A stretch of 64,000 bases of DNA, from positions 744,001-808,000 of the forward strand of contig CP145410.1 in NCBI GenBank assembly GCA_036867785.1, written 5' to 3'. Every line of letters starts with the position of its first letter. Position 1 is the first letter of the stretch. The notes under the pieces were generated by a model, which saw only the letters and a list, made by a program, of their open reading frames with translations, ran no database searches and was not told where the DNA came from. Made by a program: the position numbers and the translations under genes. Source of the DNA: Plasmodiophora brassicae (taxonomy: Eukaryota). Of the stretch, positions 18,095 through 39,733 are shown piece by piece.

Positions 18095-18131
18095 AGCGTC
18101 ATCGCCTATCGCGCTGTGGGAGACTGTATTG

Positions 18132-24800: not shown

Positions 24801-25012
24801 ACACGGACGAGGCGTCGTTCTCGGCGGGGTCACCGTTGGCGGCCAAGTCCGGCGACAAGGTCAGGACGCCGGCGGGCGGATCGCGGCTGTCGTCGAAAGC
24901 GCTGCCCAAGCTGGACCTGGCGCTCGCCGAGCCGAACTCGATCGACCAGGCGTCCCCGCTGCCCGCCTGGCTGAAGTCGCCGCCGGCGAAGACGCCCGGC
25001 AAGAACCTGTAG
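18884..25012 (+). CDS. Type I membrane protein: signal peptide, glucose/sorbosone (PQQ-dependent) dehydrogenase propeller, PKD domain, FN3-like segment, four ~170-aa CBM-like repeats, TM helix, short tail; more than 10 introns
   Basis: VFLTEKDGRI, DRGMLGVAVD, SHHIGDLVWAPDGGLYLTAGDG, KGLRNPYRF, LYVGDVG..WEEIN, NFGWPCYEG; PKD-like FHWDFGNG...GVHTVKLTV; repeats starting LLIDDF / LMVDDY / LVVDDF / VDIDDF; TM LLAWLAIGGSILIVLVVGALLC followed by RRRRR. Confidence 0.8.
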
Positions 25013-25219
25013 ATAGTAAACCCCCTGTTGTCTCGCACACCACAGTCTCTGGCCCGGCACCAACGTGTCTGCCTGCCGCTCGTACAGCAACCCGGGCACT
25101 AACAACGCGTTCTGTATTCATACGCGCATACACGGTTGGCGGAGGTGGCCGGCCGGTCCACTGCCCCCTTCATGGCATGATTACGCGCACCCCGGTGATG
25201 GCTAACGGATTCGGGTCGC

Positions 25220-28200
25220 CTACTCCTGCGGGGGACGACCGTCCGGTACACTGGGGCGCTTGGTGAACGCGCCCAGGACGACCTCGTTGACGGCGTCGGA
25301 CATGATGCGTTCCCGTCGGGCGCTGCTCTTGGAGAACAGGTCGGTCAAGGGCAGGCGCTGCAGGGCCTCGTCGACCAGGTTGAGGTAGTGGCTGTTGAGC
25401 AGGACGGAGAAGTACTGCCTGGCGCTGATCAGCATCTGGTGGTCGCGCGGGTCCCGGAACCCGCAATGGCTCCCGATGATGAACCGGGCGCGCGCGTCAA
25501 AGAACCGCAGGTCGGTCAGCTCCAGGACGCCGATCGCCCGCTGCAGCGTCCCGATCGACGGCGACGCCGACCCGTTCGACAGGCTCTCCAGCAGCTCCAG
25601 GCAGCCGGCGTACAGGTCGGCGATGCCCCGGGCGAACGCGTACCGCGACGCAAAGTCCTTCAGGCGTCGGACGACGACCGCCAGGTTCCGGCGCGCTTCC
25701 GCCACGTCGATCGCGTCGTGGTTGCGCGCCCGGCCCGCGGTCGTCAACGCGCCGGGCGACGCCGCTGCCGCGCCGCCGACCGGGTTGCTGCCCGGGAGCA
25801 GAAGTGTCTTGGAGGCGGCGGCGGCAGCGCCCGCGCCGGCGCCAGCACCACCACCACCAGCAGCGGCAGCGGCGGCCAGCGGCGGCTGGTTCTGTGTGGC
25901 GGCGGCGGCGGCCCTGGGCGTGTCCAGCAGGATCTGCACGAGGTACTCGGCGATGAGCACGTGCTGCAGGATGTCGTCCCACCGGGCGATGTCGGTCCGC
26001 GTCGAGTAGTCGAGGAAGAGCGTACCGAACCAGGCGGACGCCTTGCTGGTCTGGCCCAGGCGCAGGTAGACCAGGCAGAGGATGCCCTGGCCCGTGATGG
26101 ACAGCTCGACCTCGCCCCGGTACTCGCCCAGCAGCAGCGTCCGGCACGTCTCCAGCTCGTTGTACTGCAGGGCCATGAACGCGTTCAGCGTGGCGATGTG
26201 CCGGTGCATGACGACGCTGCCGTACTGGGTGCAGGCCCGGTCCAGCGTGGTCAGCGACGACCGCGCCTGGACGAAGTCCTCCTGCAGGATCGCAAGGACG
26301 GCCTGGCTCAGCAGGAGGCGGTAGCCGAGCAGCGGCTCCTCGTAGAGCATGCGGCCGACGGCACAGTGCTTCAGCTTGGGTTCGGCCAGCGCGAAGTTGC
26401 CGCTGGCGATGTCGAGGATGGCGCCGTACAACGTGACCAGGTCGGTGACGGGCGACGTGGGCGCGGCGGCCCGACGCGACGCCCGACCCGCGGACGAGTA
26501 CGCCATGTCGGTCCAGCCGTGCCACAGGTAGTACTCGCTGATCGTGGCGTCCGCCGCGGCCGCCATGGCCTCGCTGGCGGGGTCGCTGCTCACCGGCAGC
26601 GCTTGCGCCGCGTCGACCGCCTTCATCGCCGCGTCGAACCCCTCGTTGGCGTTGTTCACCATGACGCTGTTCCAGGCGATCAGCAGGTAGATCCGGATGA
26701 TGGCGATCAGCTCGGCGTTCGACGACGCGGGCGCCATGCCCGTCGACGGCGGCATCAGGCGGTGCTGCTGGAGGTCGTCGTCGCCGCCGACGCCCGACAT
26801 GGCGCTGGACACGACGCTGGCCCGGTTGTGGTGCGTTGACACGGCGCCCGACGGCCGTTCGTGGACCTTGAACAGCGAGCGGATCCAGTGACGAGCGCGC
26901 GCCGTCGACACCGACAGGCCATGCGACATGGGCACGGGACGACCGAGGTGCAACAGCGCGTTCTTCAGCGAGTCGACCGCCAGGGCATACTCCTCGATCA
27001 GCATGTAGCACTCGGCGAGCTCCACGTTGATGGCGTCGACAGCGACCGGCGTGATCGGCGGCGCCGCCGCGAACGCGTCCGTTCCCGCCGCCGGCGACGG
27101 TTGCCTGGACAGCGACAACGAGCCAGCGATGGCAGCACGGTAGGCGGCGATGGCCTTGGAGATGGCCCCGTCCCTTCGTTGGCTGCGTCCGACGCGAACC
27201 TGGTACATGATGCACCGGGCATAGTTACGCGCCATCCGCCAGTGATGCGCCAGCTGGTTGTCGTTCTCGGCGCCGAGTTCCTCGAGGACGCTGGCCACCA
27301 CGCCGTGCAGGCGGCGCTTCCTCTCGATGTCGACGGTCGACGCCACCGAGTTCAGGACGGCTTCGCTGGCGAAGGCCACCTGCCGCATGTCGCTGCCGGG
27401 CGGGGTCGCATCAACCATCAGGCGCGCCTTCGTTAGGAACGCGTCCAGTTCGCGATCCAGGTCAGCGTCCTCCTCCGGGTACGTCGCCCCATCGACGTTC
27501 AGCTCTGGGTTGGCGTTCAGCAGGCGGAGCACCGCCTGCAACGTCCTGTACTCGAAGCGCATGCCGATGACGCTACAGACGGCCAGCACGTCGCGCTGCG
27601 GTTTGGTCAGCTGGTCGGTCATGACCCGATCCATCCGAATGTTGGAGTCCCGAGCCGTCCTCTCGCGCATGCGTCGAGCCCGCTCGCAGACGACGTAGGA
27701 CGCCCTAGCGATCGCGATGATGCGGTTCGGGTGGCCGCCAGCCGACACCGACACGAACGACAGGAACTCGGGCGACGGAAGGAATCCCCCCAGCGACAGG
27801 GACACGAGCAGCGCCGTCTCCTCGGTGGACAGCGCGGGCAGGAGCAGTGACTCGCGTGCACAGTTGCTGAGGAACTCTTCGCCGTGCATCACCCGGGTGT
27901 CCAGCGTCGCTATCAGTGAGGCAGGACTTGTCGCGGATTGCCCGATCGGGACGCGTCTCGCTTCCGGAGCGCTTTCGTTGTACCCAAGGATGGCGAACGT
28001 CGACGGGGCGTGCCCGACAAGCTCGTCGATGCAGATGGCCGACCAGGGGTCCAGGCGCTCGGCTCGATCGACGACAAGAATGAGGCGACGGCCGGGCGGA
28101 AGTAGCATGCCGACGACGATCGACAGCAACTGAGCGGCACGATGACCGTTCGTCGAGGAGTCTGGGGCGCGGGGCGACATCGTGGCGTCAGAGGCGGGAG

Positions 28201-31200
28201 GAGCCGGGAACCCGTCACCGTCAATGTCGAGCAGCGGGTTCAGCAGCCATAGGTCGCGTGCCAGGCGAGGGGCCATCCGGTTCGTCGTTGACATGACCTT
28301 GGCACGAAGCGCGGCCCCACCACCGGCGGCAGCCGCGACCGGCTTGAAGAACTGTTTGACCAGATGGCGAATGGCGGTACCCGGAGGCAACGCGTTACCC
28401 GCAGGCGGCAAGTACGTCAAGAGGAACGCTGGCCGATGGGAACATGCCAGCAGGGCGGGCGTGACCTGGACGAGGTTCCGTAGCAGACCAGAGAGACCGC
28501 CCGTGTGCGACCTGATCTGGACCAGCAGCCCGTGGTTCATATCCAGGCGACTGACGACCATGTTCTGGAGGCGGGAGCGCAGGTCGTACCGGCCGACGTA
28601 CAGGACCGACCGGCTCAGCGACTGTAGTCGACGAACGCACGCCAGCTCGACAGCGTCGAGTACAAAGTAGACACGCAGCTGGATAGAGGCGGCAGCGGCG
28701 GCGGTGGCTGTCGTACTCGTGTGTCCACCAGCACTTGGCGGTTGCTGCTGCTGCTGTTGCTGCTGCTGCTGCATCTGCTGCGCGTCCAGTTTGCCTTGCT
28801 GCGCCAGACGGGACGCACCGAGCGGCACCGATGTGTTCGTGGCCTCGGCGGCCGCCATGGCCGCCTCGTCGTACTCGTGCGTGATGATCGACTTCTCGAA
28901 CGCGTCCTGCGTGTTCTCGTCGATCACGATGTTGGATTTGGCGATGGACAGCGCGATCTGGGCGTGGCGAACGGCGGGGCCGATGGCGACCGTGTCCTCC
29001 AGCGCCGACACCGTGTACAGCCAGCCAGGGCCGCTGCCGATCCCGACGTTGCATGCCGACCCGATCAGGCGTGATAGGCGGAGGGCGAACATGAAGGCGA
29101 CAGGCGGGCCCAGCTCGGCGGCGGCATCCACAGCGACCAGCGCCGACAGATGGAGGCCGGACGACGACAGCGATATGTGGAGGCAGTGTGGCTCGCTGAA
29201 CCGCATTGTTTGCAACTCGAACGATAACACGTCGATGAAGCGGCACGCTTTCAGCGGATCCTGTTGAGGCAATTCAACGCGAACGGCGATGACAATCAGG
29301 TCCAGGGCGGGGTCGTCCGAGGCCGAAGAAGCGAACACGCTGCCTGGCGATAGGGCAACCGACTCGAAGCTGCTGGCTGAACTGCCCACCTGGCCAGGTA
29401 GGTTGATCTGCAGAAGGTCGTTGCCCGATGTTATCGGAGCGCTCATGCCCGACACGTTCGGGGTCGTCCCCATAGCCGTATTGCCGGAACGCTGCAGCAG
29501 GCGATGGTTATGCTGGCTGCTATCACCGTTAGGTGGTACGATGACGCCAGGTGCATGGCGTCGCGTTGGGAGCCGAACGAATGGTGCCGCGACAAACGAC
29601 GCGGTCTTCAGCACCTGATACTGTCTGATGAGCGAGATCAGCGTCTGCGCGCCGCCGTCCTGGACGACCCCATCGTCGGACGCGTTTGAGGGTTGGAACC
29701 CATGCACGACGGCATATATGCGATCATCGCCTTCGCGACGAACGTCGACGCGGCCGCATAAGCGCAGGAGCTTGAGCATGTCCTTGTGGACGACGATCTT
29801 GCCCTCATCGCTCCACAGGTGGACGTCGTTGACAGCAGGACCGATACCAATGAACCCGCGCATGGCGTTCACGCCTCGAGTGTTCACAAACACGATATCG
29901 TCGCAGGCCATCAGCCAGCGGAAATCGAACCGGTCCTTGAACGTGCGCTCCTGCAGAGCGTGGCGCATGGCCAGCGCACAGAGCATGGCCTTCGAGCAAA
30001 GAGACGCCTGCGAGGATGTCGCACATGCGTCCCAGACAGCCAGCAGGTGCTGATCTGTCAGCTCAAGAACCGCCCCGCGGAATCGTTCGACACAGTCGAG
30101 CAGGACGGCGAAGACGGCCGCGTATTCCCCGCGGGATGATTGCTTGCTGACCGAGGCGAGCCGATCTGGTATGCAGACACGTAGGACGACGGCCCAGGAC
30201 GTGACTGGTTCCAGCGATGCGGCGATCGCCTTCGACTTCAAGTTCGACGCGTTCGACGTTGTCAGGGATGGCGTTACAGTGTTAGTCGTCGATGAGATGG
30301 GTAGGCAGACGTCGGCACTGCCGGTCGAGCAGATGGATCCGTATGCAATAGGCCGAGGCAGGATAGACGCCCAGGCGGAATCGGACGGCGTCGCACAGAT
30401 CGGCGGTGGCAAGGACTGCTGCGTCACGCTGGCTAGGGATCCCAGCAGAGTCGATCCGATCGTGTAAATTGTCGTGGGGAGCCGAGTTACCGAAGAGTAG
30501 GGCGTGCGAGAAACAGAGGGCGCCGCCGTCGATGGCGATAGTGTTTCCCCTCTCGTGAACGTCTTCACACGCGACAGCGCACTCTGCTTCGATTCGACAT
30601 CGGCGTTCTGTTTCGGTTCGCCATCAGCACCGGACAAGGCCTCAGGCACTTGCTCATTATCGTCTTCAGCTTCTGTGGGTGCGGGTTCCTGGTCATCGTC
30701 TCCGCTTTCAGAAGACGATGATGAGAATGGTGTCATCGGGGCAGGCGGCTCCGTTGACGTGGATGGCGGATCCCTATGTTCAGGAATCGAACGCATGCGC
30801 CCAAGGTTTGGGGCCGATGCGCTCACCGAGTTCAGGGACGGCTGCCGCAACAGGTCCTCATTCGAGACGGACTCATCATCGCCACTGGCGGCAAAGCCAT
30901 CCTCGACATTGGCAAACGTGAGGCCGGTGTTACCCGCCAAAGGATGGGGCATTTGAGTTAACTTTGAGACTTCTGGCAGGTCCACTTCGCTGTCCGCGTT
31001 CACCGCCATCTGGTCGAGGACGACGGGCCAGCGATCACGAATGATACGCGCCATGGACATCATACGATCTTCGTTACGACGTCTTGCCAGTGAGCGTGAC
31101 GACAGATCGCCATCCTTCGCTTCCTCCTCGATGTGCGGATCATTGTCGATGTTCTGGAAACGTCGCCGCAGACGGGCCAAGTAGTAATGATCGTTGCAGA

Positions 31201-34200
31201 GCGAAAGCGCCAAACGAGCATGTCGTCGTGGTCTGGACTGGCTTGTGCTTTTCTCAGTCAGGACGTGAGCCATGAAGAAGTTGATGACACCGCGCGTTCC
31301 GGGCAGGTTGAACTCGATAGCAGCGTCGTCGGCCGCGTTCAACATATGTGCAACATCGATCCAGGCGAGGCCTTTGCACCAAAGGAGGGCTGCGTGCCAT
31401 AGTAGGAAATGCGCTCGACAGAAGGGTGCCCGAGACGAGATCAGGTACAGTTCGTGAACGGCCGTATCAGCTTGGGACAGCAGCGTGCGCCACGTTCCAC
31501 AGCCAATTGCGGCCAGGAGCTCATCGTTTTCCCCATTGTCTCTGCGCTCCCGATCATTGCTAACGCTGACGCTGCCCCGTTTGTTGTGGTCGAATCGGCC
31601 TTGAACGGCGAGGTTGACGAGAACCTCCGCGGCCGTCAAGGCACCGAGAACGACCTGAAGACGGGATATACCATGGACGCGTTTCCGCAGAGACACAGAC
31701 GTGGTGTACGCTCTCCCAAACGCGCCTGTTCGCATCGCCACTTGGGCATCCAGTGACGCCAATAGAACCGCAGCATCCGACGAGGATGCAGGTTTCTGTG
31801 GATCCGCTAGGAGGCGCTCGACGCCAGCGCGCGATACAGCAGGGTACACGAGTTTCTTCGCCATGGATTCGATCACTGACATCTTCGGGGCCGACGTCAA
31901 CAACGCAGCAGATGCCCCAGTAGTTGCCTGCCCGCCAGCCTCACCGTCACTGGATACTGTCGATGGCGCCCGTGCGTTTGTGGGCGCTTCCCCGACAGGT
32001 GCCTCAAAGTCAACGGTTCCAATGAGGACCAAGGCTTCCAGCAGTCTGCTTGCGGAGAGCGTCGGGCTGTCCAAGAAGTGGACCTTCGCGGCCAAGAACG
32101 TGGCCTCGCCGAGAGCCACCGCCGCAGCCTTGACATCGCCAAGGAACATGTGCATAATGCCCAAGTGCTGACCGATCCGAATTGTCACTGGTACGTCGAA
32201 CAAGTCCTCGCGGTAGAACTGCTGGGTGAGGCCGGCGATGTTGACGGCCGTACGCCAGTAACCAAAGGCGGATGCTGCCTGCCAGATTAAGTCCAGGGAT
32301 TCGGCCAACGTTCTGGGCTGGCGCGACACGCGAATGCACCGTTTGGCCAGGACGCATGCCATATTCAGCAAGGCACCATTGTCATAACCGAGTTCGCTGA
32401 TGAGCAGGATCAACCAGGAATAGCGCAGGGCAAGGATGTCAGCGGAAGGAAGTGCGGACAGCGGCGGTGACGACAGCAAGGCTCGAATAGCAAACAGTAA
32501 GGCCCGTTCCAGGTTGCCCAGTTCGCGTTCAGTCCTGGACATGGAATCCCTAAGAGCGGCGTGCAACCCGTCGACGACCAAGTCGAAACCGACAACACCG
32601 CCTGCGGGCGCAGAGGTGGGCAACTTGCATGGAGCCACCGATACGTCAACCTTTTTCGCTGAGTCATGGGACCCGGATACCTTAGACGGCTCATGCGGCG
32701 ACCTGCGGTACCGAGCACAGCAGGACGCTGGACTGCAGAGAAGTAGATGCCCAACACCAAGGCGAATGCTGAGCCCCAGGGCGCTGGCCGAGATCGAGGC
32801 TGCCGAGTCGTTGACGCACGTCAAAGCGACAGTCAGCAGACGCTGCGCCTCTGGCCATTCCTCAGCCTGCATGTGCACATACGCGAGCCGGGCCAGCAGC
32901 TGTGCACGCATCACCCTGCTGTGTTCGCCCACCTGACTGCTGCTTTCGCCACCCGACTCGACAACGTGCGACAGGATATCAAGTGCTTCGGCTTTCATGA
33001 ACAGGTACATGAACTGTTCGCCCGCAAGAAGGCTGAACTTGCGATCCAGGGAAAACACTTGACCGAGCCGATAATGCTTGGCGACCTGCGAAAACATATA
33101 CGCCGACGAAGTCGACCCGCTTTCGTAGTACTCGGCAACGGCAACATGAAGTCTACGTCGTATTGGGTCCGGCATGGTATTGTACACGTCGTCGCGGGTC
33201 GACGAATGAGGAAAGGATACACGCGGTGACGATGATCTCATGTTGGCCAACAGCAGCCAGCCGAGCTGCGATAGTCGAGAAAGTTCCGCTTTGAATAGCC
33301 TCGTGTCCATGTACTGAGTCGACAGCATGCGCAGGACATTCAGCGGGAATGATACGCCAATGACAGACGCCAGTCGTAGAAGCTTGATCTGATTCGTTGA
33401 CAGGAAACTCGTCCGGCGTAACGTCAAGTCGGCGCTGCTTCCAGAGATTGCGAACAGGACGTCGACAACATCCGCGGTGAGGTCCACGCTGCCTCCCTGG
33501 ACGGCCATCAGGCCAGCTTCGTTGATTGCGGTCATGACTTGGAGCGCGGCCAAAGGATTCCCTCGAGTCTTATCCATGAGGAGAATCTCCAAGCGCGTAG
33601 TCAGATGTGTCGCGCGCAGGACACAACAGGCAAACAGTGACAGCGACTGGCGACGCAGCGGCTCGACACGTAACCACTGTGTCGTTGCCACAGGCAAGTA
33701 GAAGTTGCCTTCAGGTAAAGCAGCTCTGGCGAACTCACCGGTTTCGGCAATGGTCTGGAGCGTGCAAATGATAAAGGCCCCAGCAATAGGGTTGGCGGCC
33801 ATACACCCCAGAACATGCCATGTCCCCGAATCGAACCATTGAATGTCTTCGCACACGAGACAGAAAGGGAACGCTTGCGACACGCCGCGGATGAGCTCGT
33901 TGAAGACATGGGCCAGGACCTGAGCGCGCGCGACCTCCGACATTTGGCGCAACGCCGGCTGCTGGACGCCATCTGACGAGTAAATAACGTGCATCATGAC
34001 CTCCCTGAACTTGTTGTAATGCGGTATACGGTTGAAGAGAATGTCCATGATGGTGAAGACACTCATGACACCCAGAGTTCTGCCGTATTCGCCAATCATC
34101 TTCCGAACAAGGCGGATGACCGGGAGGTAAGGTTGCTGCTTGTACGATAACTCCCCGTACATGACAAAGGCACGGATGGTTTGATTTTCAGTCGTCACAA

Positions 34201-37200
34201 GGTGGACGAAACGTCGAGCCAGAGCCGACTTGCCGACTCCCGGTTCGCCAAACAGGACTACAGGGCAATGCTGAACAGAGACACCTGTGTCTCGTCGGAA
34301 AGCCTCTTGGAGAGCTTCCACGTGCTGCTCGCGGCCGACCAGCTCGTTCTCAGCATCGAGCCCGATGATCAGGGTGTGCTCAATTGGCGTGGAAGGTACG
34401 CGGTCGAGATCTGGTGTGTCAGGTGAGGAAGTCGGTGGCGTCTCGTTGACAGTCGACTCCTTCGTCTGCAACGATTCAGTCGACGGCGATGAAGTACCCT
34501 TGGAAAGTGGATGTTTGGAGAAGAACTCGACGTTGGCCAGGCTGCTGAAACGGACGCGGGCGTTACGTCCAGAAGGGCTAGGGGCTGAACCGGCCGCGCC
34601 GTGGCCTACTTCATCGTATAACAGCTGAAGCGCTGCCTCGTCGATTATGTCGCCAAGAGACGATAGATTAGCCTGGCGATAGCCCAGCAAGCGCATATCC
34701 CTTTTCGTTGCCGTGCGATCGTTCGTGTCTCCTTCCGATTCGACCTCACCCACAATGCGCTCTTTGAGCAGCGGTAGCAATAACATGGCGAACCCGTGCT
34801 GGCGAATCAGCGCCGCATACTGCTGCATGTGTGATGAAGCCATGGAGTCACCCGCGGTCCCGGGAACGATGTCCGCTTTAGGCGCCGGTGGAGTAGACGA
34901 CTGGGCGGCAAGCGTCTTGGCCTTTGATCCGAGGTCGGGCCGGCCAAGGGTCCCAATAAGGCGATGCGCCATGGCCTCCTCGTAGGGAAGGCGGAAAGAT
35001 ACAGCCAGGCCAAGTGCTTGGACCCAGTCAGATGTTGCCTGCTTGATGCGAGTCGGATCGCGAGTGATCGTCAGCAGTCCGTTGATAAGAAGATAACGTG
35101 GTTTAGCCAGCGGTACACGGTCCGCAAGCTCGCGAAACGTACGAACGCATGTAACGGCAAGGTCAAGGCCTTGGCGCACCTCCTTATCGCTGACATTATA
35201 GGCCAGCTCCCTGTAGTGCAGAATGGTGACCTGAGCCATCCAGGCGATTGCAGACAGAGCGTCGTATGCGACTCCGTGAGCAAGCCCAGCAATAACGGTG
35301 GCATGGGATAGGGCTTCATCGCGACGTCCCTCGTACCAGTCGGAAGCCATTCGACATGCTCGCCACTGAACCCGAGACCGGATATCGTCGATCAAGTCGG
35401 ATTCGCTAATGCCACCGAGAACCTCAGCGGTTGCACGGGTCTCCCCGTTAAGCAATCGTGCAAGAGCCAGCAGAATAGATGCACGACTTTGACCCCAGCG
35501 GAAAGAGCACCATTCAGATATCTGGTACATGCGCTGGACCACGTCCTTCACATCGTTGACTCGCCCCCATGTCAAGTATATGCCGGCTAGCTGGTCCAGA
35601 GCTCGGACGCTGTGATGGGGACTATTCACCGTTGTGAAAAGATCGCTAGCGTTGCGAAGGTACTCCAGAGCACGATCGATATCACCATATACAGCACAGG
35701 AAACGCTGGCTAATCGCATCCAGATGTAGCCCTTGACAAACATAGAGAACGGAGCATTTCCGGCAGAATTACGGTCATCATCCAGGCGCGCCAGCGTTCG
35801 CCTAAAGAACCGCCGACAAGCATGACGGCGCCCTTCGGTCAAGCCGCCCATCATCATATGGGCCATGGCCAGAACACGCTGCTCAAACGAGCCGGCTAAG
35901 TCAGCGGATCTGATGGCGAGGATAGCAGTATCAACGACAAGCCGGCCATCACCCATCTCGATAGCAATGTGGCTCAGCAAATTATAGGCTTTGGCGCGCT
36001 CCAGGAGGCGGGGTGTAATCGTATCCCCAGACGACATTCTCTTCGCATTGTTCATCACCATGCGTCTCAGGACCATGCACGAGCTGAAATCTCCGCTCAT
36101 TGAGCTTACCATAGAACAACAGCGATGATCAGAATCGGGAACGTAGCCACCCAGATTACGAATTGCGGATTCGACCAGCGGCCGGCACATTTGAAGTTCG
36201 AAATTCTCGAAATATGACTTTGCGACACTTCGCTGGAGCTTCGCGATCTCAAAACGATCGTTAGGAGAAAACCGCTGAAGCAAGGCAAGACCCTTTCCAG
36301 AGTTCAGCGATGCGGTTGCGAAATCGCCAAGAGAGAAAGCGGCATCGCCAGCTAGTCGATAATACTGGATCGCATTGTGCAAGCGGCCAGCACGTTCAAA
36401 GTGCCCCGCCAAATCGGCCGATGTTGCTGGAATCGTTTCCAAACGGCCAACAAGAAGCATGTCCTGCTGCTGGCGCTCGAGACGATCGACGATCAAGTTA
36501 TGATAGACGGAGGAGTCCGCAGCTGAAAGCAATTCATAGACGATGCCTTTCATAAGTGGTTGCCGAAACGCGTAGGTCACTTTAGGCACAGTCGCCGTTG
36601 TGACAATGAAATCGTTAGCTTCAAGCTGGGCCAGGTTCTCCAGAAGCCGCTCGTCATCGTACGGCGAAATGGCTTGCAGAAGTTCCAGCGGAAACACGAC
36701 GCCAATGACCGAAGCACATTTGAGAACCTCTTGTTGAGAAGGAGTCAGGCTGTCCAGCCGACTTGTGATGATCTGTTCTAGCATGTACTGGACAATCTCA
36801 TGTGCAGTCTCTGTAAATCGGTGAGGCGATATGTTCGCCTCCAGCAGCCCCGATGCCAGCGCAACGACCAAATACGGATTGCCTTCGCTGGATTTGTGCA
36901 CCGTGTCCAACAGCGACTCAGGCAACTGTGTCATATGGAGTCTCAGACACAGTAGCGCCTCGATGTCTCGCCTTGACAGTGGACCAAGCTTGACGCGAAC
37001 GAAGTACGGCAGGCTCCTGAAGTCTTTCTGGGCACGCGATGTCTTCTCCTGCACTGATGACAACTCTGAATGGGTACCGTTCGACGGAGCCGCCAGAGCA
37101 ATGGTCATCGCCTCTGCGTTCTTCTTCCCGTTGGTGCTTGGTGACGAATCGGCGTTCGCGGCAACCAACGATGCCGGGCTATTGACAGGCGGAAGCGGGC

Positions 37201-39733
37201 GAGATGTCAGTATGACGACCATCTTCGGAGGCAGCCGACAGCAGATGTAATTGAGATGAAACGCTGATAGGGGATCTAGATTCCGTAGATTTTCAACGAT
37301 AAGGCAGATCGGGCCGTGCATCTCGATGACGACTCGTAACAGATGGAGTAGTGCACGACTTCGTGGGCGCTGGTCACCATACCCTGAGCCCGACGAGTAC
37401 TTCGACTTGCCGGAAGACGATTTCGACGAACCGTAGAGAGCCTTCTTCGCTCTTCCGGTATGTCTTCCCGTCGCCGATGCGACTCGAGAAGTTGACGCTC
37501 CAATACCGATGATTTCCTCCACATCGCGAGCGGTTAGTCTCTCCTTACCGGCCATAACTTCCAGCATGGACGCGATCGGCAGCTTGGAGTCGGTGTCAGG
37601 AGGGCAGCACGATAGTATAAGCGGTGCAAGGATAGCATTCCACATTATCAGGGGGACCCCATCCGACATGCGGTTCGCGGCAAAGTGGAAGATGTCGCAA
37701 TGGAAATCTTGTGCGATCTCCCATATGCCTTGAACAAGGCGGGTCTTCCCCATCCCCGCTTCACCCTCAATTAAAAGGACAGACTTTCTGTTCGGATCCG
37801 GCTTGTCGCAATGAAGTTGAACGAACATTTGCTTGGCGATTGCCATTTCGGTGGCACGCCCGAGCATCAGGGTAGATGGACGTTCCAAAGACTGCTGAGG
37901 CACGGACGGTATCGGCCTGAAGATCTGAACGATGCCCAGGCGTCCTTTGACCTTGATGGGCTCCATTTTTTCAAAGTCAATCCACTGCGAGCGCCCACGA
38001 GAGTAGGCGGCGCGCTGGGTTTCACCGTCGCAGAGCAGGCCGTTATGCGACGCAACCATCAGCCGAGCGCTCAGGTTAACGATATCGCCAACGATGGCGT
38101 ATTCGCAACGAGTCTCGTCTCCCACTGAACCGCAGAAAGCCCCGCCGGTCGTGATGCCGATACCAGTTCGCATGCCCATGTCACCCAATTCCGACTGAAT
38201 CGTTAGCGAGGCCTGAATGGCACGAACGGGATCGTCGTCGTGAGAGTTGTACGGCAAGCCGAAAGCGGCAATGGCAACCGTGCCTTTGTCGTCTTGGATC
38301 AGCTGGCGAAGAGTGCCGTCGAATCGGTGCAACGCCTGCTGGATCGACCTGAACGCCTTCTGGTTCGACTGGATCTGCTGATCGGTATCGTAATGAAAAT
38401 CGGGAAGGTTGATGAAGACCATAGTAACCTGGCGTCTTTCTCCAATCAGCCCCTGTTTGCCCGCATTCAAAGCGAGAATAACGGATCGTGGCAAATAGCA
38501 GGCCAGGGCCAACTCGATAGGACGACAGTTCCGGGATCTCGAAAGGAACTGCATGAGATCAGGAACTGAATCCAGAACGGGAGACACGGGGGTATCGACA
38601 GACGTCAACAGGAACAAATCGTCGTCACGTACGGCAACCTGACAATGCCCTTTGATTAACTCGTACACTGAAGACTGCATGACGACTTCGCCTCGGACAG
38701 CCGACTCCAGGGCACGGCCCATCTCAACGATCGGTTGCCCGGCAAACATGTACTCCCACCGGTGCTCGATCCCGCCGAAATGCAACTCGTGCAGCATACC
38801 AGCCGATATACCGGAATGAAGGTCCAGGTTGATGCCAAGCGCTTTCAAAGTGGCCATCCCCTCTTGCATGTCGAGAGCCGCCCGAGCCGCCTTCAGCCCG
38901 CATTCCAGCAGATCGGCAGGGTCGTCAGATCGGGGGCGGAACACGGACAACAAGGCGTCGCCAGCAAACTTGGTGACATCGCCACCATACTTGCGAACGA
39001 TATCGATGAATCGAGAGAATACCGTGTTGAGGATACTGGCAAGCCGTTCGCCACCGGTCTTCTGCAGAACGCCAGATGCAGATGCAGATGTGGTGGCTGG
39101 CGCCATAGTTTTCCCTTTGAACGTGTCGGCAGCCTCTGAAGTGGCATTGGCTGTTGTCGACCCAGGTGTCGATGGTTTTACATCCGACGTTGAGCTTGGC
39201 TGGCCGCGAGCCGGCACGGTGCCAGGCTGGCCGACACCCTCGTTTCGCAGCCCTTTCGCGAGATCAGCAGCCAGCTGAGTAAACCCGCTGATGTCGGACA
39301 AGAGGACGACCCCGAAGAACCGGTTCCTGACGGCATCTGTTGACAAGGAACTTCCCGTGACATGTTTGCCAGTAACCAGAATTCGTAGCGAGACAGCTCG
39401 AGGGACGTATCGCGACAGGATCTGCAGGCGATGAAGTTGCTCGTCGGCCTGAACGTCCGAGCCGACGCCGATAACACGCCACCGGTTCAACACCTCGGTG
39501 TCGGATAGCACGGAAGGAACCAAAGAAGATCGGGACGATTCGATCACGGACCGAGGCAAAGAGCTCCCATTGACAGTGGTAGACTGTCGTCGTTGGGTGG
39601 TCGGGGAGTCCAGACCGAGGTTGGTGCCAAGCGAGGCCCGGCGACCCGAGCGCTGCCGATTGGTGAAGCTCTGCATGCTGTGCATGGAGGAGCGCCCGGG
39701 CTCGTCAACCACCTTGTCCAGTACGGGCATCAC
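25220..39733 (-). CDS. Giant (4837 aa) uninterrupted class III nucleotide cyclase (ADCY10/sAC-like C1-C2) with three STAND AAA-TPR modules and a second degenerate cyclase pair
   Basis: C1: LLSDISGFT, YGGDVTKFAGDAL; C2: RRQVTMVF, IQDDKGT, FGLP..HDDDPVRA, GITTGGAFCG, RCEYAIVGDIVNLSARLM; Walker A GEAGMGKT (~37750) and GEPGVGKS (~34240); GNP motifs; helical TPR-like regions; third module YVGR...LILVVDRAERLD...GGHP. Confidence 0.9.
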   Translation of the reverse strand: MMPVLDKVVDEPGRSSMHSMQSFTNRQRSGRRASLGTNLGLDSPTTQRRQSTTVNGSSLPRSVIESSRSSLVPSVLSDTEVLNRWRVIGVGSDVQADEQLHRLQILSRYVPRAVSLRILVTGKHVTGSSLSTDAVRNRFFGVVLLSDISGFTQLAADLAKGLRNEGVGQPGTVPARGQPSSTSDVKPSTPGSTTANATSEAADTFKGKTMAPATTSASASGVLQKTGGERLASILNTVFSRFIDIVRKYGGDVTKFAGDALLSVFRPRSDDPADLLECGLKAARAALDMQEGMATLKALGINLDLHSGISAGMLHELHFGGIEHRWEYMFAGQPIVEMGRALESAVRGEVVMQSSVYELIKGHCQVAVRDDDLFLLTSVDTPVSPVLDSVPDLMQFLSRSRNCRPIELALACYLPRSVILALNAGKQGLIGERRQVTMVFINLPDFHYDTDQQIQSNQKAFRSIQQALHRFDGTLRQLIQDDKGTVAIAAFGLPYNSHDDDPVRAIQASLTIQSELGDMGMRTGIGITTGGAFCGSVGDETRCEYAIVGDIVNLSARLMVASHNGLLCDGETQRAAYSRGRSQWIDFEKMEPIKVKGRLGIVQIFRPIPSVPQQSLERPSTLMLGRATEMAIAKQMFVQLHCDKPDPNRKSVLLIEGEAGMGKTRLVQGIWEIAQDFHCDIFHFAANRMSDGVPLIMWNAILAPLILSCCPPDTDSKLPIASMLEVMAGKERLTARDVEEIIGIGASTSRVASATGRHTGRAKKALYGSSKSSSGKSKYSSGSGYGDQRPRSRALLHLLRVVIEMHGPICLIVENLRNLDPLSAFHLNYICCRLPPKMVVILTSRPLPPVNSPASLVAANADSSPSTNGKKNAEAMTIALAAPSNGTHSELSSVQEKTSRAQKDFRSLPYFVRVKLGPLSRRDIEALLCLRLHMTQLPESLLDTVHKSSEGNPYLVVALASGLLEANISPHRFTETAHEIVQYMLEQIITSRLDSLTPSQQEVLKCASVIGVVFPLELLQAISPYDDERLLENLAQLEANDFIVTTATVPKVTYAFRQPLMKGIVYELLSAADSSVYHNLIVDRLERQQQDMLLVGRLETIPATSADLAGHFERAGRLHNAIQYYRLAGDAAFSLGDFATASLNSGKGLALLQRFSPNDRFEIAKLQRSVAKSYFENFELQMCRPLVESAIRNLGGYVPDSDHRCCSMVSSMSGDFSSCMVLRRMVMNNAKRMSSGDTITPRLLERAKAYNLLSHIAIEMGDGRLVVDTAILAIRSADLAGSFEQRVLAMAHMMMGGLTEGRRHACRRFFRRTLARLDDDRNSAGNAPFSMFVKGYIWMRLASVSCAVYGDIDRALEYLRNASDLFTTVNSPHHSVRALDQLAGIYLTWGRVNDVKDVVQRMYQISEWCSFRWGQSRASILLALARLLNGETRATAEVLGGISESDLIDDIRSRVQWRACRMASDWYEGRRDEALSHATVIAGLAHGVAYDALSAIAWMAQVTILHYRELAYNVSDKEVRQGLDLAVTCVRTFRELADRVPLAKPRYLLINGLLTITRDPTRIKQATSDWVQALGLAVSFRLPYEEAMAHRLIGTLGRPDLGSKAKTLAAQSSTPPAPKADIVPGTAGDSMASSHMQQYAALIRQHGFAMLLLPLLKERIVGEVESEGDTNDRTATKRDMRLLGYRQANLSSLGDIIDEAALQLLYDEVGHGAAGSAPSPSGRNARVRFSSLANVEFFSKHPLSKGTSSPSTESLQTKESTVNETPPTSSPDTPDLDRVPSTPIEHTLIIGLDAENELVGREQHVEALQEAFRRDTGVSVQHCPVVLFGEPGVGKSALARRFVHLVTTENQTIRAFVMYGELSYKQQPYLPVIRLVRKMIGEYGRTLGVMSVFTIMDILFNRIPHYNKFREVMMHVIYSSDGVQQPALRQMSEVARAQVLAHVFNELIRGVSQAFPFCLVCEDIQWFDSGTWHVLGCMAANPIAGAFIICTLQTIAETGEFARAALPEGNFYLPVATTQWLRVEPLRRQSLSLFACCVLRATHLTTRLEILLMDKTRGNPLAALQVMTAINEAGLMAVQGGSVDLTADVVDVLFAISGSSADLTLRRTSFLSTNQIKLLRLASVIGVSFPLNVLRMLSTQYMDTRLFKAELSRLSQLGWLLLANMRSSSPRVSFPHSSTRDDVYNTMPDPIRRRLHVAVAEYYESGSTSSAYMFSQVAKHYRLGQVFSLDRKFSLLAGEQFMYLFMKAEALDILSHVVESGGESSSQVGEHSRVMRAQLLARLAYVHMQAEEWPEAQRLLTVALTCVNDSAASISASALGLSIRLGVGHLLLCSPASCCARYRRSPHEPSKVSGSHDSAKKVDVSVAPCKLPTSAPAGGVVGFDLVVDGLHAALRDSMSRTERELGNLERALLFAIRALLSSPPLSALPSADILALRYSWLILLISELGYDNGALLNMACVLAKRCIRVSRQPRTLAESLDLIWQAASAFGYWRTAVNIAGLTQQFYREDLFDVPVTIRIGQHLGIMHMFLGDVKAAAVALGEATFLAAKVHFLDSPTLSASRLLEALVLIGTVDFEAPVGEAPTNARAPSTVSSDGEAGGQATTGASAALLTSAPKMSVIESMAKKLVYPAVSRAGVERLLADPQKPASSSDAAVLLASLDAQVAMRTGAFGRAYTTSVSLRKRVHGISRLQVVLGALTAAEVLVNLAVQGRFDHNKRGSVSVSNDRERRDNGENDELLAAIGCGTWRTLLSQADTAVHELYLISSRAPFCRAHFLLWHAALLWCKGLAWIDVAHMLNAADDAAIEFNLPGTRGVINFFMAHVLTEKSTSQSRPRRHARLALSLCNDHYYLARLRRRFQNIDNDPHIEEEAKDGDLSSRSLARRRNEDRMMSMARIIRDRWPVVLDQMAVNADSEVDLPEVSKLTQMPHPLAGNTGLTFANVEDGFAASGDDESVSNEDLLRQPSLNSVSASAPNLGRMRSIPEHRDPPSTSTEPPAPMTPFSSSSSESGDDDQEPAPTEAEDDNEQVPEALSGADGEPKQNADVESKQSALSRVKTFTRGETLSPSTAAPSVSRTPYSSVTRLPTTIYTIGSTLLGSLASVTQQSLPPPICATPSDSAWASILPRPIAYGSICSTGSADVCLPISSTTNTVTPSLTTSNASNLKSKAIAASLEPVTSWAVVLRVCIPDRLASVSKQSSRGEYAAVFAVLLDCVERFRGAVLELTDQHLLAVWDACATSSQASLCSKAMLCALAMRHALQERTFKDRFDFRWLMACDDIVFVNTRGVNAMRGFIGIGPAVNDVHLWSDEGKIVVHKDMLKLLRLCGRVDVRREGDDRIYAVVHGFQPSNASDDGVVQDGGAQTLISLIRQYQVLKTASFVAAPFVRLPTRRHAPGVIVPPNGDSSQHNHRLLQRSGNTAMGTTPNVSGMSAPITSGNDLLQINLPGQVGSSASSFESVALSPGSVFASSASDDPALDLIVIAVRVELPQQDPLKACRFIDVLSFELQTMRFSEPHCLHISLSSSGLHLSALVAVDAAAELGPPVAFMFALRLSRLIGSACNVGIGSGPGWLYTVSALEDTVAIGPAVRHAQIALSIAKSNIVIDENTQDAFEKSIITHEYDEAAMAAAEATNTSVPLGASRLAQQGKLDAQQMQQQQQQQQQQPPSAGGHTSTTATAAAAASIQLRVYFVLDAVELACVRRLQSLSRSVLYVGRYDLRSRLQNMVVSRLDMNHGLLVQIRSHTGGLSGLLRNLVQVTPALLACSHRPAFLLTYLPPAGNALPPGTAIRHLVKQFFKPVAAAAGGGAALRAKVMSTTNRMAPRLARDLWLLNPLLDIDGDGFPAPPASDATMSPRAPDSSTNGHRAAQLLSIVVGMLLPPGRRLILVVDRAERLDPWSAICIDELVGHAPSTFAILGYNESAPEARRVPIGQSATSPASLIATLDTRVMHGEEFLSNCARESLLLPALSTEETALLVSLSLGGFLPSPEFLSFVSVSAGGHPNRIIAIARASYVVCERARRMRERTARDSNIRMDRVMTDQLTKPQRDVLAVCSVIGMRFEYRTLQAVLRLLNANPELNVDGATYPEEDADLDRELDAFLTKARLMVDATPPGSDMRQVAFASEAVLNSVASTVDIERKRRLHGVVASVLEELGAENDNQLAHHWRMARNYARCIMYQVRVGRSQRRDGAISKAIAAYRAAIAGSLSLSRQPSPAAGTDAFAAAPPITPVAVDAINVELAECYMLIEEYALAVDSLKNALLHLGRPVPMSHGLSVSTARARHWIRSLFKVHERPSGAVSTHHNRASVVSSAMSGVGGDDDLQQHRLMPPSTGMAPASSNAELIAIIRIYLLIAWNSVMVNNANEGFDAAMKAVDAAQALPVSSDPASEAMAAAADATISEYYLWHGWTDMAYSSAGRASRRAAAPTSPVTDLVTLYGAILDIASGNFALAEPKLKHCAVGRMLYEEPLLGYRLLLSQAVLAILQEDFVQARSSLTTLDRACTQYGSVVMHRHIATLNAFMALQYNELETCRTLLLGEYRGEVELSITGQGILCLVYLRLGQTSKASAWFGTLFLDYSTRTDIARWDDILQHVLIAEYLVQILLDTPRAAAAATQNQPPLAAAAAAGGGGAGAGAGAAAAASKTLLLPGSNPVGGAAAASPGALTTAGRARNHDAIDVAEARRNLAVVVRRLKDFASRYAFARGIADLYAGCLELLESLSNGSASPSIGTLQRAIGVLELTDLRFFDARARFIIGSHCGFRDPRDHQMLISARQYFSVLLNSHYLNLVDEALQRLPLTDLFSKSSARRERIMSDAVNEVVLGAFTKRPSVPDGRPPQE
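28741..28782 (-). repeat. CAG/CAA trinucleotide repeat encoding poly-Gln inside the giant cyclase
   Basis: ttgctgctgctgctgttgctgctgctgctgcatctgctg on plus strand; QQMQQQQQQQQQQ in the translation. Confidence 0.9.

What the first reader, a model, noticed from the sequence alone, without database searches (positions are those of the whole stretch)
25220..39733. Giant uninterrupted cyclase-STAND protein with three NTPase-TPR modules and a second, dead cyclase pair: possible single-chain NLR-like signalosome
Seen: one 14.5-kb stop-free ORF with architecture [C1-C2 cyclase ~39320-37910][AAA1-TPR ~37870-34800][AAA2-TPR ~34350-31150][pseudo-C1/C2 ~30200-28900][pseudo-AAA3-TPR ~28610-25350]. Established: mammalian ADCY10 and bacterial cyclase-AAA-TPR proteins carry ONE cyclase pair, ONE STAND NTPase and one TPR region, and STAND proteins generally signal by ligand-induced oligomerisation. 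Inference: internal triplication has put three STAND-TPR units in one chain, which may act as a pre-assembled asymmetric oligomer with several sensor arrays controlling one active cyclase. I do not know of this architecture being characterised.
Basis: partly seen in the sequence, partly recalled or inferred. Interest (0 to 1): 0.9.

Follow-up and report, generated by a model that had tools for sequence, protein, structure and literature searches.

The report
Giant three-switch soluble-type cyclase gene
The clubroot parasite Plasmodiophora brassicae expresses one intron-free 14.5-kb gene for a relative of animal soluble adenylyl cyclase that carries one working-looking cyclase pair, a second dead pair and three ATPase-switch/sensor modules in a single chain, a layout that has not been studied.

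Summary
Window 25220..39733 (-) is one stop-free frame of 4837 codons (ATG at 39730). It is 100% identical to P. brassicae PBRA_001450, which is annotated only as a hypothetical protein.

- an ADCY10-like C1-C2 pair with its metal-binding Asp pair and its Asn/Arg pair intact;
- STAND module 1 and STAND module 2, both with intact P-loops;
- a degenerate cyclase pair;
- a third STAND module without a P-loop lysine.

RNA-derived contigs from four studies cover the gene end to end and show no splice. They break only inside two low-complexity repeats. One contig reads through the 282-nt intron of the database gene model.

The history differs from a simple triplication. Three distant giants (P0003, P0004, P0212) have [C1C2-STAND-sensor][dead C1C2-STAND-sensor], so a whole soluble-cyclase unit was duplicated. 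Module 2 is an extra seen only here. An unrelated giant (P0130) triplicated the unit independently.

The idea of a pre-assembled oligomer was not tested. This scan has noted single-unit relatives in prokaryotes before, but not this multi-unit form. Verdict: a new variant of a known kind, of moderate interest.

The parts
25220..39730 (-). Coding sequence of the giant cyclase: ATG at 39730, stop codon at 25220-25222. It gives 4836 aa if nothing is spliced out.
   Evidence: 100% identical to PBRA_001450 over residues 1-1700
25095..40123 (-). Approximate transcribed span, taken from where the RNA-derived contigs end.
   Evidence: contigs start at 25095-25099 in 4 of 4 runs; the longest contigs end at 40108 (X1), 40123 (X4), 39754 (X9) and 39981 (X11)
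38654..39322 (-). Cyclase domain C1 (residues 138-360), with metal-binding Asp147 and Asp259, Lys255 at the bicarbonate-lysine position, and a low-complexity insert of about 65 aa.
37916..38521 (-). Cyclase domain C2 (residues 405-606), with Asn553 and Arg557. Gln477 stands where human sAC has Lys334.
36314..37876 (-). STAND NTPase module 1 (NOD1, residues 620-1140). Walker A is GEAGMGKT and Walker B is LIVEN.
34754..36313 (-). Sensor domain 1 (residues 1141-1660), a helical TPR-like domain homologous to the C-terminal domain of animal ADCY10 and of bacterial relatives.
   Evidence: 222 of 262 short relatives hit; sea-urchin ADCY10-like 192 bits, pike ADCY10 140 bits; Pfam TPR_12 24.9 bits, below its cut-off
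33008..34348 (-). STAND NTPase module 2 (NOD2, residues 1796-2242). Walker A is GEPGVGKS and Walker B is LVCED. This module is not found in the three related giants.
   Evidence: (AAA_16 60.9 bits)
31034..33007 (-). Region after NOD2 (residues 2243-2900), presumed to be sensor 2. Its similarity to the family sensor domain is only weak.
   Evidence: 8.6 and 3.9 bits; TPR_2 E 0.075
30203..31033 (-). Ser/Pro/Thr-rich linker that looks disordered (residues 2901-3177).
   Evidence: read from the sequence; no Pfam hit
29714..30202 (-). Dead cyclase domain psiC1 (residues 3178-3340). It has no D-x-x-G-F-T motif, and the second metal-binding Asp is replaced by Gln.
   Evidence: (hhalign 93-94%, aligned to C1)
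28814..29326 (-). Dead cyclase domain psiC2 (residues 3470-3640). Arg and Ile stand in place of the Asn and Arg of the catalytic pair.
   Evidence: hhalign 9.5-24.5%, collinear with C2; strand-helix-strand-strand-helix-strand topology; human sAC aligned over 470-520 columns
28734..28783 (-). CAG repeat encoding poly-Gln between psiC2 and NOD3. All RNA contigs break inside it.
27164..28576 (-). Degenerate STAND module 3 (NOD3, residues 3720-4190). The P-loop reads RSHTG-GLS, without lysine; the Walker B strand is LVVDR.
   Evidence: AAA_16 E 0.007; 63 bits
25334..27163 (-). Sensor domain 3 (residues 4191-4800), homologous to sensor 1.
   Evidence: 26.2 bits over profile positions 83-467, plus 5.1 bits
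25658..25939 (-). The 282-nt stretch that the database gene model removes as an intron (GT..AG, in frame, G+C 0.77). The RNA contigs do not show it spliced.

Best explanation
This is a real, expressed, unspliced gene of Plasmodiophora brassicae. It encodes a 4836-aa cytosolic class III nucleotidyl cyclase of the soluble adenylyl cyclase (ADCY10) type.

What is shown:
- Unit 1 (C1-C2, NOD1, helical sensor) is homologous along its whole length to full-length ADCY10 and to its bacterial relatives. It keeps the residues needed for catalysis.
- Further along the chain lie an extra STAND-sensor module (module 2, with intact Walker A and B) and a second, ancient copy of the whole unit. In that second copy the cyclase pair has lost its catalytic residues and the NTPase has lost its P-loop lysine.

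What is inferred:
- The N-terminal pair makes cAMP, or possibly cGMP.
- NOD1 and NOD2 act as nucleotide-dependent switches whose helical arms sense ligands or partner proteins, and in this way hold the cyclase in check or release it, as in MalT-type STAND proteins.
- The dead unit no longer catalyses anything. It serves as a folded regulatory or scaffolding partner, giving a cis substitute for part of the self-association that single-unit relatives would achieve between chains.
For: Gene and transcript:
- The ORF is intact.
- Contigs from 4 of 4 runs carry a spliced 89-nt GT..AG joint in the neighbouring gene, so they derive from RNA. They cover the ORF with pieces of 10.5-11.3 kb (28.8/29.5 to 39.8-40.1 kb) and 2.7-3.6 kb.
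- One contig reads through the annotated intron, and none of the 4 runs shows a joint there.

Unit 1:
- Human ADCY10 is the best solved match, E 3e-31.
- D147, D259, K255, N553 and R557 align with D47, D99, K95, N412 and R416 of ADCY10.
- The sensor profile hits animal ADCY10 C-termini with 140-192 bits.

Modules:
- The family NOD profile finds three NODs.
- Walker motifs are read.
- The sensor profile hits module 3 with 26 bits.
- Language-model features place residues 3700-4200 among AAA_16 clusters, score 0.95.

Dead pair:
- hhalign gives 93-94% for psiC1 against C1, and psiC2 aligns collinearly with C2.
- 28 of 30 nearest Atlas clusters are in the Guanylate_cyc set.
- The model shows the strand-helix-strand-strand-helix-strand pattern twice.
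- All 32 listed Foldseek rows with E <= 0.001 are class III cyclases.

Conservation: P0003, P0004 and P0212 share the two-unit layout, including the dead pair and a second NOD.
Against: - No activity, nucleotide binding or oligomeric state was measured, so the mechanism is inferred from family knowledge.
- The residue at the purine-specifying position (Lys334 of human sAC) is Gln477. The same column among relatives holds K 52, Q 25, R 20 and E 9, so substrate specificity is open.
- The Arg176 bicarbonate position aligns to Gly339, with Arg340 one residue off.
- The model of the dead pair has a mean pLDDT of 39.9, and TM-scores to cyclases are low (0.35-0.51 per domain).
- psiC2 alone reaches only 9.5-24.5% in hhalign.
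- Pfam finds nothing in residues 2901-3700.
- All TPR hits are below Pfam's cut-offs.
- The runs were labelled 'RNA?' only as a guess.
- Contigs cannot prove a single molecule, and no contig bridges the CAG repeat at 28734-28783.
- In human sACfl, none of the nucleotides tested changed cyclase activity (passage read in PMC12802110). Even in the best-studied relative the STAND switch has no shown role.
Confidence: 0.6

Rival explanations
1. The enzyme is a guanylyl cyclase, not an adenylyl cyclase, as is the Dictyostelium homologue of soluble adenylyl cyclase (sGC). It would feed a cGMP pathway, for example in zoospore or amoeboid motility.
For: Gln477 replaces the adenine-contacting Lys334, and Ala546 replaces Thr405. 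The Dictyostelium sAC homologue is a guanylyl cyclase, and its C-terminal AAA-ATPase domain is needed for function (passages read in PMC8684759).
Against: The residues are not the Glu/Cys pair of canonical guanylyl cyclases (that pair is recalled from memory). Gln at this position is common in the family, in 25 of about 115 aligned relatives, most of which are unstudied. The closest solved relatives are adenylyl cyclases.
Confidence: 0.25
2. The full-length chain is not the main working form. As with mammalian sACt and sACfl, a shorter product made by proteolysis or an alternative transcript end carries the activity, and the C-terminal two thirds act separately or only inhibit.
For: Mammalian sAC works largely as a truncated isoform with higher specific activity than the full-length form (passages read in PMC12802110). 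Long disordered linkers (residues 1660-1795 and 2901-3177) and a poly-Gln tract separate the units. No single contig bridges the CAG repeat.
Against: Depth is even along the gene within each contig, and contigs of 10.5-11.3 kb join C1-C2, module 1, module 2 and the dead pair in 4 of 4 runs. The one-chain layout is conserved in three distant relatives.
Confidence: 0.2
3. The protein acts mainly as a non-catalytic scaffold, for example at the cytoskeleton or flagellum, and cyclase activity is secondary.
For: In Dictyostelium, the sGC protein has a function that does not need its catalytic domain but does need the AAA-ATPase domain (passage read in PMC8684759). Two thirds of this chain has no catalytic role.
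Against: All residues checked for catalysis in C1-C2 are kept, and the cyclase pair is the best-conserved part of the protein (40-48% identity to relatives, against undetectable-to-weak similarity elsewhere).
Confidence: 0.1
4. The giant frame is an artefact: an assembly join or read-through of two or three neighbouring paralogous genes.
For: G+C and GC3 change sharply within the gene (GC3 about 0.6 rising to 0.94). The database model differs from the plain ORF.
Against: Contigs from four studies match the window with 0 differing letters over 10.5-11.3 kb. There is no stop codon in 4837 codons. Three independent relatives carry the same order of parts in one frame.
Confidence: 0.03

Closest known systems
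Full-length soluble adenylyl cyclase (ADCY10, sACfl) of animals
   Same: - The catalytic pair is C1-C2. Human sAC is the best match in the PDB, E 3e-31.
- It is followed by a P-loop STAND domain and a C-terminal helical domain.
- The sensor profile seeded from residues 1140-1660 hits sea-urchin and pike ADCY10 C-termini with 192 and 140 bits.
   Different: - ADCY10 proteins are about 1600-1860 aa long and have one unit. This chain adds a second STAND-sensor module and a whole second, catalytically dead unit.
- Gln stands at the Lys334 position.
- C1 carries a 65-aa low-complexity insert.
Bacterial and archaeal sAC-like C1-C2 / AAA_16 / TPR proteins (about 1300-1450 aa; Chloroflexota, Planctomycetota, Actinoplanes and others)
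   Same: The order of parts is the same as in unit 1. These are the highest-scoring relatives after the giants (330-366 bits, 33-38% identity). The sensor domain is homologous with 408-431 bits.
   Different: They have a single unit, and many carry clear Pfam TPR_12 or TPR_MalT hits, which this protein lacks at threshold.
Unnamed giants P0003 (4790 aa), P0004 (5529 aa) and P0212 (3644 aa, cut at its N-terminus)
   Same: The layout is the same two-unit one: active C1-C2, NOD1, sensor, dead cyclase pair, second NOD, sensor. Identity in the cyclase pair is 40-48%.
   Different: - They have two NODs, not three.
- Their second NOD keeps a P-loop (GGEGTGRT, GEAGVGKS, GQNHVGKA) but lacks the acidic Walker B residue. 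The P. brassicae NOD3 shows the reverse.
Unnamed giant P0130 (5195 aa)
   Same: It has several sAC-like units in one chain: three C1-C2 pairs (362, 354 and 196 bits) and three NODs. The third cyclase pair is the weakest.
   Different: It arose independently: its three NODs group together with support 1.0. It has an EF-hand-like N-terminal region and no long sensor domains between units, and it is only 29% identical.
Dictyostelium discoideum sGC (the sAC homologue that makes cGMP)
   Same: It is a protist sAC homologue that is much longer than the animal enzyme, and its C-terminal AAA-ATPase domain is needed for function (passages read in PMC8684759).
   Different: As far as I recall it has one cyclase pair and one ATPase module. 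Its sequence was not compared here.
MalT / AfsR-type STAND regulators and mycobacterial cyclase-ATPase proteins (Rv0386, Rv1358, Rv2488c)
   Same: They combine an AAA_16-type NOD with a helical repeat sensor arm, and their signalling model is ligand- and ATP-dependent self-association. This is recalled; Danot et al. 2009 appears in the reference list of PMC12802110.
   Different: They have a single cyclase domain or none, DNA-binding outputs, and one NOD per chain.

Membership tests
Class III nucleotidyl cyclase, soluble adenylyl cyclase (ADCY10) type | Two different catalytic domains (C1, C2) in tandem on one chain | tested here: met
   Pfam Guanylate_cyc matches in 2 stretches, E 7e-11. Both domains align to human ADCY10 at residues 38-197 and 260-433.
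Class III nucleotidyl cyclase, soluble adenylyl cyclase (ADCY10) type | Two metal-binding Asp residues in C1 (human D47, D99; their roles are recalled) | tested here: met
   D147 and D259 align with them. The D259 column is D in 97 of the relatives that have a residue there.
Class III nucleotidyl cyclase, soluble adenylyl cyclase (ADCY10) type | Transition-state Asn and Arg in C2 (human N412, R416; their roles are recalled) | tested here: met
   N553 and R557 align with them. These columns hold N in 112 and R in 113 relatives.
Class III nucleotidyl cyclase, soluble adenylyl cyclase (ADCY10) type | Adenine-specifying Lys in C2 (human K334; its role is recalled) | tested here: not met
   Gln477 aligns with K334. 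Family counts in this column are K 52, Q 25, R 20, E 9, so substrate specificity is left open.
Class III nucleotidyl cyclase, soluble adenylyl cyclase (ADCY10) type | Bicarbonate-site Lys95 and Arg176 (their roles are recalled) | tested here: inconclusive
   K255 aligns with K95. R176 aligns with G339, and R340 lies one residue away.
Class III nucleotidyl cyclase, soluble adenylyl cyclase (ADCY10) type | C-terminal STAND P-loop domain and helical domain homologous to those of sACfl | tested here: met
   The NOD profile built from single-unit relatives fits residues 620-1140. The sensor profile hits animal ADCY10 C-termini.
Class III nucleotidyl cyclase, soluble adenylyl cyclase (ADCY10) type | Makes cAMP, with stimulation by bicarbonate, calcium or pH | not testable with these tools
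   Needs an enzyme assay.
STAND NTPases (AAA_16 / MalT-like) | Walker A GxxxxGK[ST] | tested here: met
   Module 1 has GEAGMGKT and module 2 has GEPGVGKS. It is not met in module 3, which reads RSHTG-GLS. Pfam AAA_16 scores 90.1 bits for the whole protein, in 3 stretches.
STAND NTPases (AAA_16 / MalT-like) | Walker B hydrophobic strand ending in an acidic residue | tested here: met
   LIVEN (module 1), LVCED (module 2) and LVVDR (module 3) are aligned.
STAND NTPases (AAA_16 / MalT-like) | Helical / winged-helix part of the NOD after the NTPase core | tested here: met
   Family profile positions ~285-518 match residues 2016-2242 (105 bits) and 3953-4190 (63 bits). Internal BLASTP: module 1 vs 2 E 2e-7, 1 vs 3 E 8e-5, 2 vs 3 E 0.02.
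STAND NTPases (AAA_16 / MalT-like) | Nucleotide-dependent oligomerisation on ligand binding | not testable with these tools
   No complex prediction was run. Biochemistry is needed.
TPR repeat proteins | Pfam TPR-family match above the curated cut-off | tested here: not met
   The best hit is TPR_12 at 24.9 bits against a cut-off of 30.1 in module 1. Modules 2 and 3 give E 0.017-0.075. The domains are nevertheless homologous to regions of bacterial relatives that do carry TPR_12/TPR_2 labels.
Pseudo-cyclase (catalytically dead class III cyclase fold), residues 3178-3640 | Cyclase fold kept, catalytic residues lost | tested here: met
   Fold: hhalign 93-94% for psiC1, the strand/helix order in the model, Foldseek rows and Atlas features. 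Residues: no D-x-x-G-F-T motif, GD replaced by DQ, and Asn/Arg replaced by Arg/Ile in the alignments. Model confidence is low (pLDDT 39.9), and psiC2 alone is weak.

The most novel reading that the evidence does not exclude
The chain is a cis-assembled STAND machine. NOD1, NOD2 and the P-loop-less NOD3 would pack against one another as the protomers of a STAND oligomer normally do, and the dead cyclase pair would dock on or beside the active pair. Three different sensor arms would then be read out by one active site without any concentration-dependent assembly step. This would be a single-chain counterpart of an NLR or MalT signalosome, with division of labour between live and dead subunits.
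Probability: 0.15. Interest if true: 0.75.

Novelty: new variant of a known kind. Interest (0 to 1): 0.48.

Why it matters
What the STAND/helical half of soluble adenylyl cyclase does is still unknown, even in mammals. The 2025 study of purified sACfl found no effect of any nucleotide it tested (passage read in PMC12802110).

Natural chains in which that half has been duplicated, partly inactivated and kept for a long time show which parts can lose catalysis yet stay under selection. Here these are the P. brassicae protein, three distant giants with the same two-unit plan, and an independently triplicated one. Together they give candidate systems for asking whether STAND modules of this family work by pairing with each other.

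For clubroot biology, the result marks one large cyclic-nucleotide source that is transcribed in infected-tissue data from several studies. It also corrects the gene model: the annotated 282-nt intron is not supported.

The practical value is limited, because the organism cannot be cultured and the protein is about 520 kDa.

Tried and rejected
- **Self-BLASTP of the whole protein** gave nothing usable. Comparing segments pairwise did work.
I used local profiles instead.
- **Metagenome locus scan**: 10 loci were confirmed out of 180 pattern matches. All were too short or ended too early to show the downstream architecture, so they were not used.
- **Aligning the 501-aa middle region to full-length P0003 and P0004** (A2) scattered the query along the long rows. 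I discarded it and made A3 from the matching stretches.
- **Single-sequence model of NOD3**: mean pLDDT 38.2. Its Foldseek search gave 0 matches with E <= 0.001. The weak rows include clamp loaders, ORC and Apaf-1, but they carry no weight.
- **Search for shorter proteins related to residues 3150-4837**: none among 8000 candidates scored. The search is word-based, so this is weak evidence that the dead unit never stands alone.
- **The window's own genome** is not held, so paralogues in the genome could not be counted.
- **The look-up of sequencing runs** listed no holder on record as RNA. I treat the four laid runs as RNA-derived only because all four carry the spliced 89-nt joint.
- **A 78-nt joint in one contig of X11** (29395->29474; side 28; GT..AG on the plus strand, which is the wrong strand for this gene) was dismissed as an assembly effect.
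- **NOD tree**: module 2 groups with the module-3 clade at only 0.75, and P0003's second NOD falls elsewhere. I do not draw an origin for module 2 from it.
- **Complex prediction** was not run, because shallow alignments and low-confidence folds made a usable verdict unlikely.
- **Supplementary files of papers** were not opened. Expression tables of P. brassicae transcriptome papers may list this gene.
Full report
**What is there**

The window holds one open reading frame at 25220..39733 on the minus strand, 4837 codons long and without a stop. Its second codon is ATG (39730). The translation is 100% identical over the queried residues 1-1700 to a deposited protein, "hypothetical protein PBRA_001450 [Plasmodiophora brassicae]" (P0002, 4742 aa). 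That protein starts at this ATG. The organism is therefore the clubroot parasite of brassicas, a rhizarian protist.

The deposited model differs from the plain frame in one respect. It removes residues 4599-4692, which is window 25658-25939: 282 nt, GT..AG, in frame, G+C 0.77.

**Is it one expressed gene?**

I laid Logan contigs of four runs from four studies on window 24400-40600. The runs were labelled RNA only as a guess. However, all four carry the same 89-nt GT..AG joint (24578->24668) in the neighbouring plus-strand gene, which the genome sequence does not have. I therefore treat the contigs as transcript-derived.

- In 4 of 4 runs contigs begin at 25095-25099, about 125 nt beyond the stop codon.
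- Single contigs run from 28784-28829 (29474 in X11) to 39754-40123: 11280, 11333, 11013 and 10508 nt. These join the 5' UTR, C1-C2, module 1, module 2 and the dead cyclase pair.
- The breaks fall inside the 50-nt CAG repeat (28734-28783) and inside the GC-rich Ala/Gly-coding stretch around 25.7-25.9 kb.
- In X9 a 3676-nt contig (3639 nt of it laid) covers 25095-28733 and reads straight through the annotated intron. No run shows a joint there.
- The relatives also conserve sequence inside the removed piece. The motif before "DFASRYAFARG" has counterparts in P0003, P0004 and P0212 (read).

I conclude that the unspliced 4836-aa product is the better model. Contigs cannot prove a single molecule, so that point stays open.

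**The N-terminal unit**

- Pfam finds Guanylate_cyc in two stretches (E 7e-11 on residues 1-620).
- The best solved relative is the human soluble adenylyl cyclase core (4clf and others, E 3e-31), aligned over both domains.
- Counting along that alignment, D147, K255, D259, N553 and R557 stand at human D47, K95, D99, N412 and R416. The roles of these residues are recalled from the sAC structure literature.
- Gln477 stands at K334 and Ala546 at T405.
- In an alignment of 153 matched segments from relatives, the K334 column holds K 52, Q 25, R 20 and E 9. Gln is thus a common family variant, but the substrate cannot be read off.
- R176 aligns with Gly339, next to Arg340.

After C2 comes a P-loop module (GEAGMGKT) that Pfam sees only weakly (AAA_16 19.6 bits, NACHT 19.5 bits on the segment). 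A family-specific profile built from single-unit relatives fits it over 521 positions.

The next 520 residues seed a profile that hits 222 of 262 shorter relatives. These include bacterial proteins with Pfam TPR labels (408-431 bits) and the C-termini of sea-urchin and pike ADCY10 (192 and 140 bits). Unit 1 is thus a full counterpart of sACfl.

**The extra modules**

- *Module 2.* Pfam AAA_16 matches residues 1797-1981 strongly (60.9 bits). The family NOD profile finds module 2 at 1796-2242 (32 + 14 + 105 bits).
- *Module 3.* Pfam AAA_16 matches 3790-3911 weakly, without the P-loop part (E 0.007). The family NOD profile finds module 3 at 3953-4190 (63 bits, C-terminal half only).
- *Internal similarity.* BLASTP links the modules pairwise: 1 vs 2 E 2e-7, 1 vs 3 E 8e-5, 2 vs 3 E 0.02.
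- *Walker motifs.* Aligned with the relatives' modules, module 2 has GEPGVGKS and LVCED. Module 3 has RSHTG-GLS, with no lysine, and LVVDR.
- *Language-model features.* Residues 3700-4200 fall among AAA_16 clusters (score 0.95, 218 of 256 features).
- *Sensor regions.* The sensor profile hits module 3 at 4323-4766 (26.2 bits). Module 2 is hit only weakly, at 2652-2832 (8.6 bits).
- *TPR label.* All Pfam TPR hits are below their cut-offs. "TPR" is best read as "helical sensor domain of the sAC family".

**The dead cyclase pair**

Pfam finds nothing in residues 2901-3700. Four other lines of evidence agree that a cyclase-like pair is there.

1. A C1-C2 profile from relatives hits 3207-3336 (12.4 bits) and 3560-3649 (4.2 bits). 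It also hits the equivalent place in P0003.
2. Profile-profile alignment of the region from three or four giants against the C1-C2 profile gives 93.2-94.1% probability (E 3e-7 to 1.2e-7) for the first half, aligned to C1. For the second half it gives a collinear but weak match to C2 (9.5-24.5%, E 0.0034 to 8e-4).
3. 28 of the 30 nearest ESM Atlas clusters are in the set that carries Guanylate_cyc.
4. An AlphaFold2 model from a four-row alignment is poor (mean pLDDT 39.9), but it shows the order strand-helix-strand-strand-helix-strand-strand twice. In its Foldseek search, all 32 listed rows with E <= 0.001 are class III cyclases. Human sAC aligns over 470-520 columns, though TM-scores are low.

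In the alignments the D-x-x-G-F-T strand motif is absent, the second metal-binding Asp is Gln, and the Asn/Arg pair is Arg/Ile. The linker between the two halves in P0003, P0004 and P0212 even keeps the "LY(I/V)P.L" motif of the true C1-C2 linker (read).

**Relatives and history**

- A word-based search among proteins of similar length found 3 hits among 1282 scored candidates: the protein itself, P0003 (4790 aa) and P0004 (5529 aa).
- An exhaustive HMMER search of 1.84 billion representatives with residues 100-1140 gave 42614 hits. Among the best 150, four exceed 3000 aa: P0002 itself, P0003, P0212 (3644 aa, cut at its N-terminus) and P0130 (5195 aa). The other 146 are 510-1887 aa.
- P0003, P0004 and P0212 each have two NODs and the dead pair between them.
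- Their second NOD keeps a P-loop but lacks the acidic Walker B residue, the reverse of P. brassicae. The second NTPase is therefore degenerate in a different way in each lineage.
- P. brassicae module 2 has no counterpart in them. In a NOD tree it sits beside the second-unit clade with support 0.75 only, so its origin is open.
- P0130 is a separate case. It has three C1-C2 pairs (362, 354 and 196 bits) and three NODs that group together with support 1.0. It multiplied the unit independently.
- No shorter protein related to residues 3150-4837 was found.

**How it most likely works**

Shown:
- one catalytically equipped cyclase pair;
- two NTPase modules with complete Walker motifs;
- one dead cyclase pair and one NTPase module without a P-loop lysine;
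- three helical domains, of which two are clearly homologous to the ADCY10 C-terminus.

Inferred from what is known of STAND proteins (recalled; the review by Danot et al. 2009 is listed in PMC12802110): the NODs switch between closed and open states with bound nucleotide, under control of their sensor arms, and this gates the cyclase. The dead unit serves as a folded partner.

The weakness of this inference is that purified human sACfl showed no regulation by any nucleotide tested (passage read in PMC12802110). In Dictyostelium the sAC homologue makes cGMP, and it has a non-catalytic role that needs its ATPase domain (passages read in PMC8684759).

**Literature**

- Full-text searches for the locus tag returned 0 papers.
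- A search for P. brassicae with "adenylate cyclase" returned 6 papers. None is about this gene, judging by title and abstract.
- A search for P. brassicae with cAMP and zoospore returned 84 papers, of which 12 were listed.
- Searches for sAC/STAND/tandem/pseudo-cyclase terms turned up no description of a multi-unit sAC-like chain.
- I read passages of two papers only. Supplements were closed.
- Earlier notes of this scan describe single-unit sAC-like proteins in bacteria and archaea, not this form.

**Verdict**

This is a new variant of a known kind: a multi-unit soluble-type cyclase, deposited but unstudied, with a gene model that should lose its intron. Interest is moderate.

Noticed in passing
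window 25220-39733 (gene) and 14000-30000 (block): There is a sharp compositional gradient inside the one gene. GC3 is 0.58-0.66 over codons 1-3200, then 0.76, 0.79, 0.90 and 0.94 over codons 3201-4800. This matches a GC-rich block of the window at about 14-30 kb (G+C 0.64-0.73, against 0.53-0.58 elsewhere). The boundary of an isochore-like domain therefore runs through the coding sequence.
   Followed up: partly
window 25658-25939: The deposited gene model (PBRA_001450) removes 282 nt as an in-frame GT..AG intron. One RNA-derived contig reads through it, and none of 4 runs shows the joint. The intron is probably a prediction artefact in a GC-rich Ala/Gly-coding stretch.
   Followed up: yes
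window 24400-25036: A plus-strand neighbour gene has a genuine 89-nt GT..AG intron (24579-24667), seen in 4 of 4 runs, and converges on the 3' end of the giant gene. The 1254-aa minus-strand ORF at 20889..24653 overlapping it has no Pfam hit and is probably spurious.
   Followed up: partly
window 24459-26024: All 17 base differences listed lie in this 1.6-kb stretch. 15 of them are shared by runs X1 and X9, and two (25805, 26024) are seen in X9 only. None is listed between 26025 and 40600, so strain variation is concentrated at the GC-rich 3' end and in the intergenic region.
   Followed up: no
protein P0130 (5195 aa, unnamed source): An unrelated giant has an EF-hand-like N-terminal region followed by three tandem C1-C2-STAND units. 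It is an independent triplication.
   Followed up: partly
window 41245-42873 (+), 57655-60231 (-), 51933-53585 (+), 7572-9557 (+), 54717-56423 (-): Neighbouring ORFs carry the C-terminal part of a kinesin motor domain, a UCH/DUSP/zf-MYND deubiquitinase, leucine-rich repeats, a Na/Ca exchanger with EF-hands, and a beta-propeller. Some are probably exons of spliced genes. Nothing links them to the cyclase.
   Followed up: no
window 38900-39290 (residues ~163-227 of the protein): A low-complexity Ser/Thr/Ala/Pro insert of about 65 aa sits inside cyclase domain C1, between the first metal-binding strand and the following helix. P0003 and P0004 have inserts at the same place.
   Followed up: no
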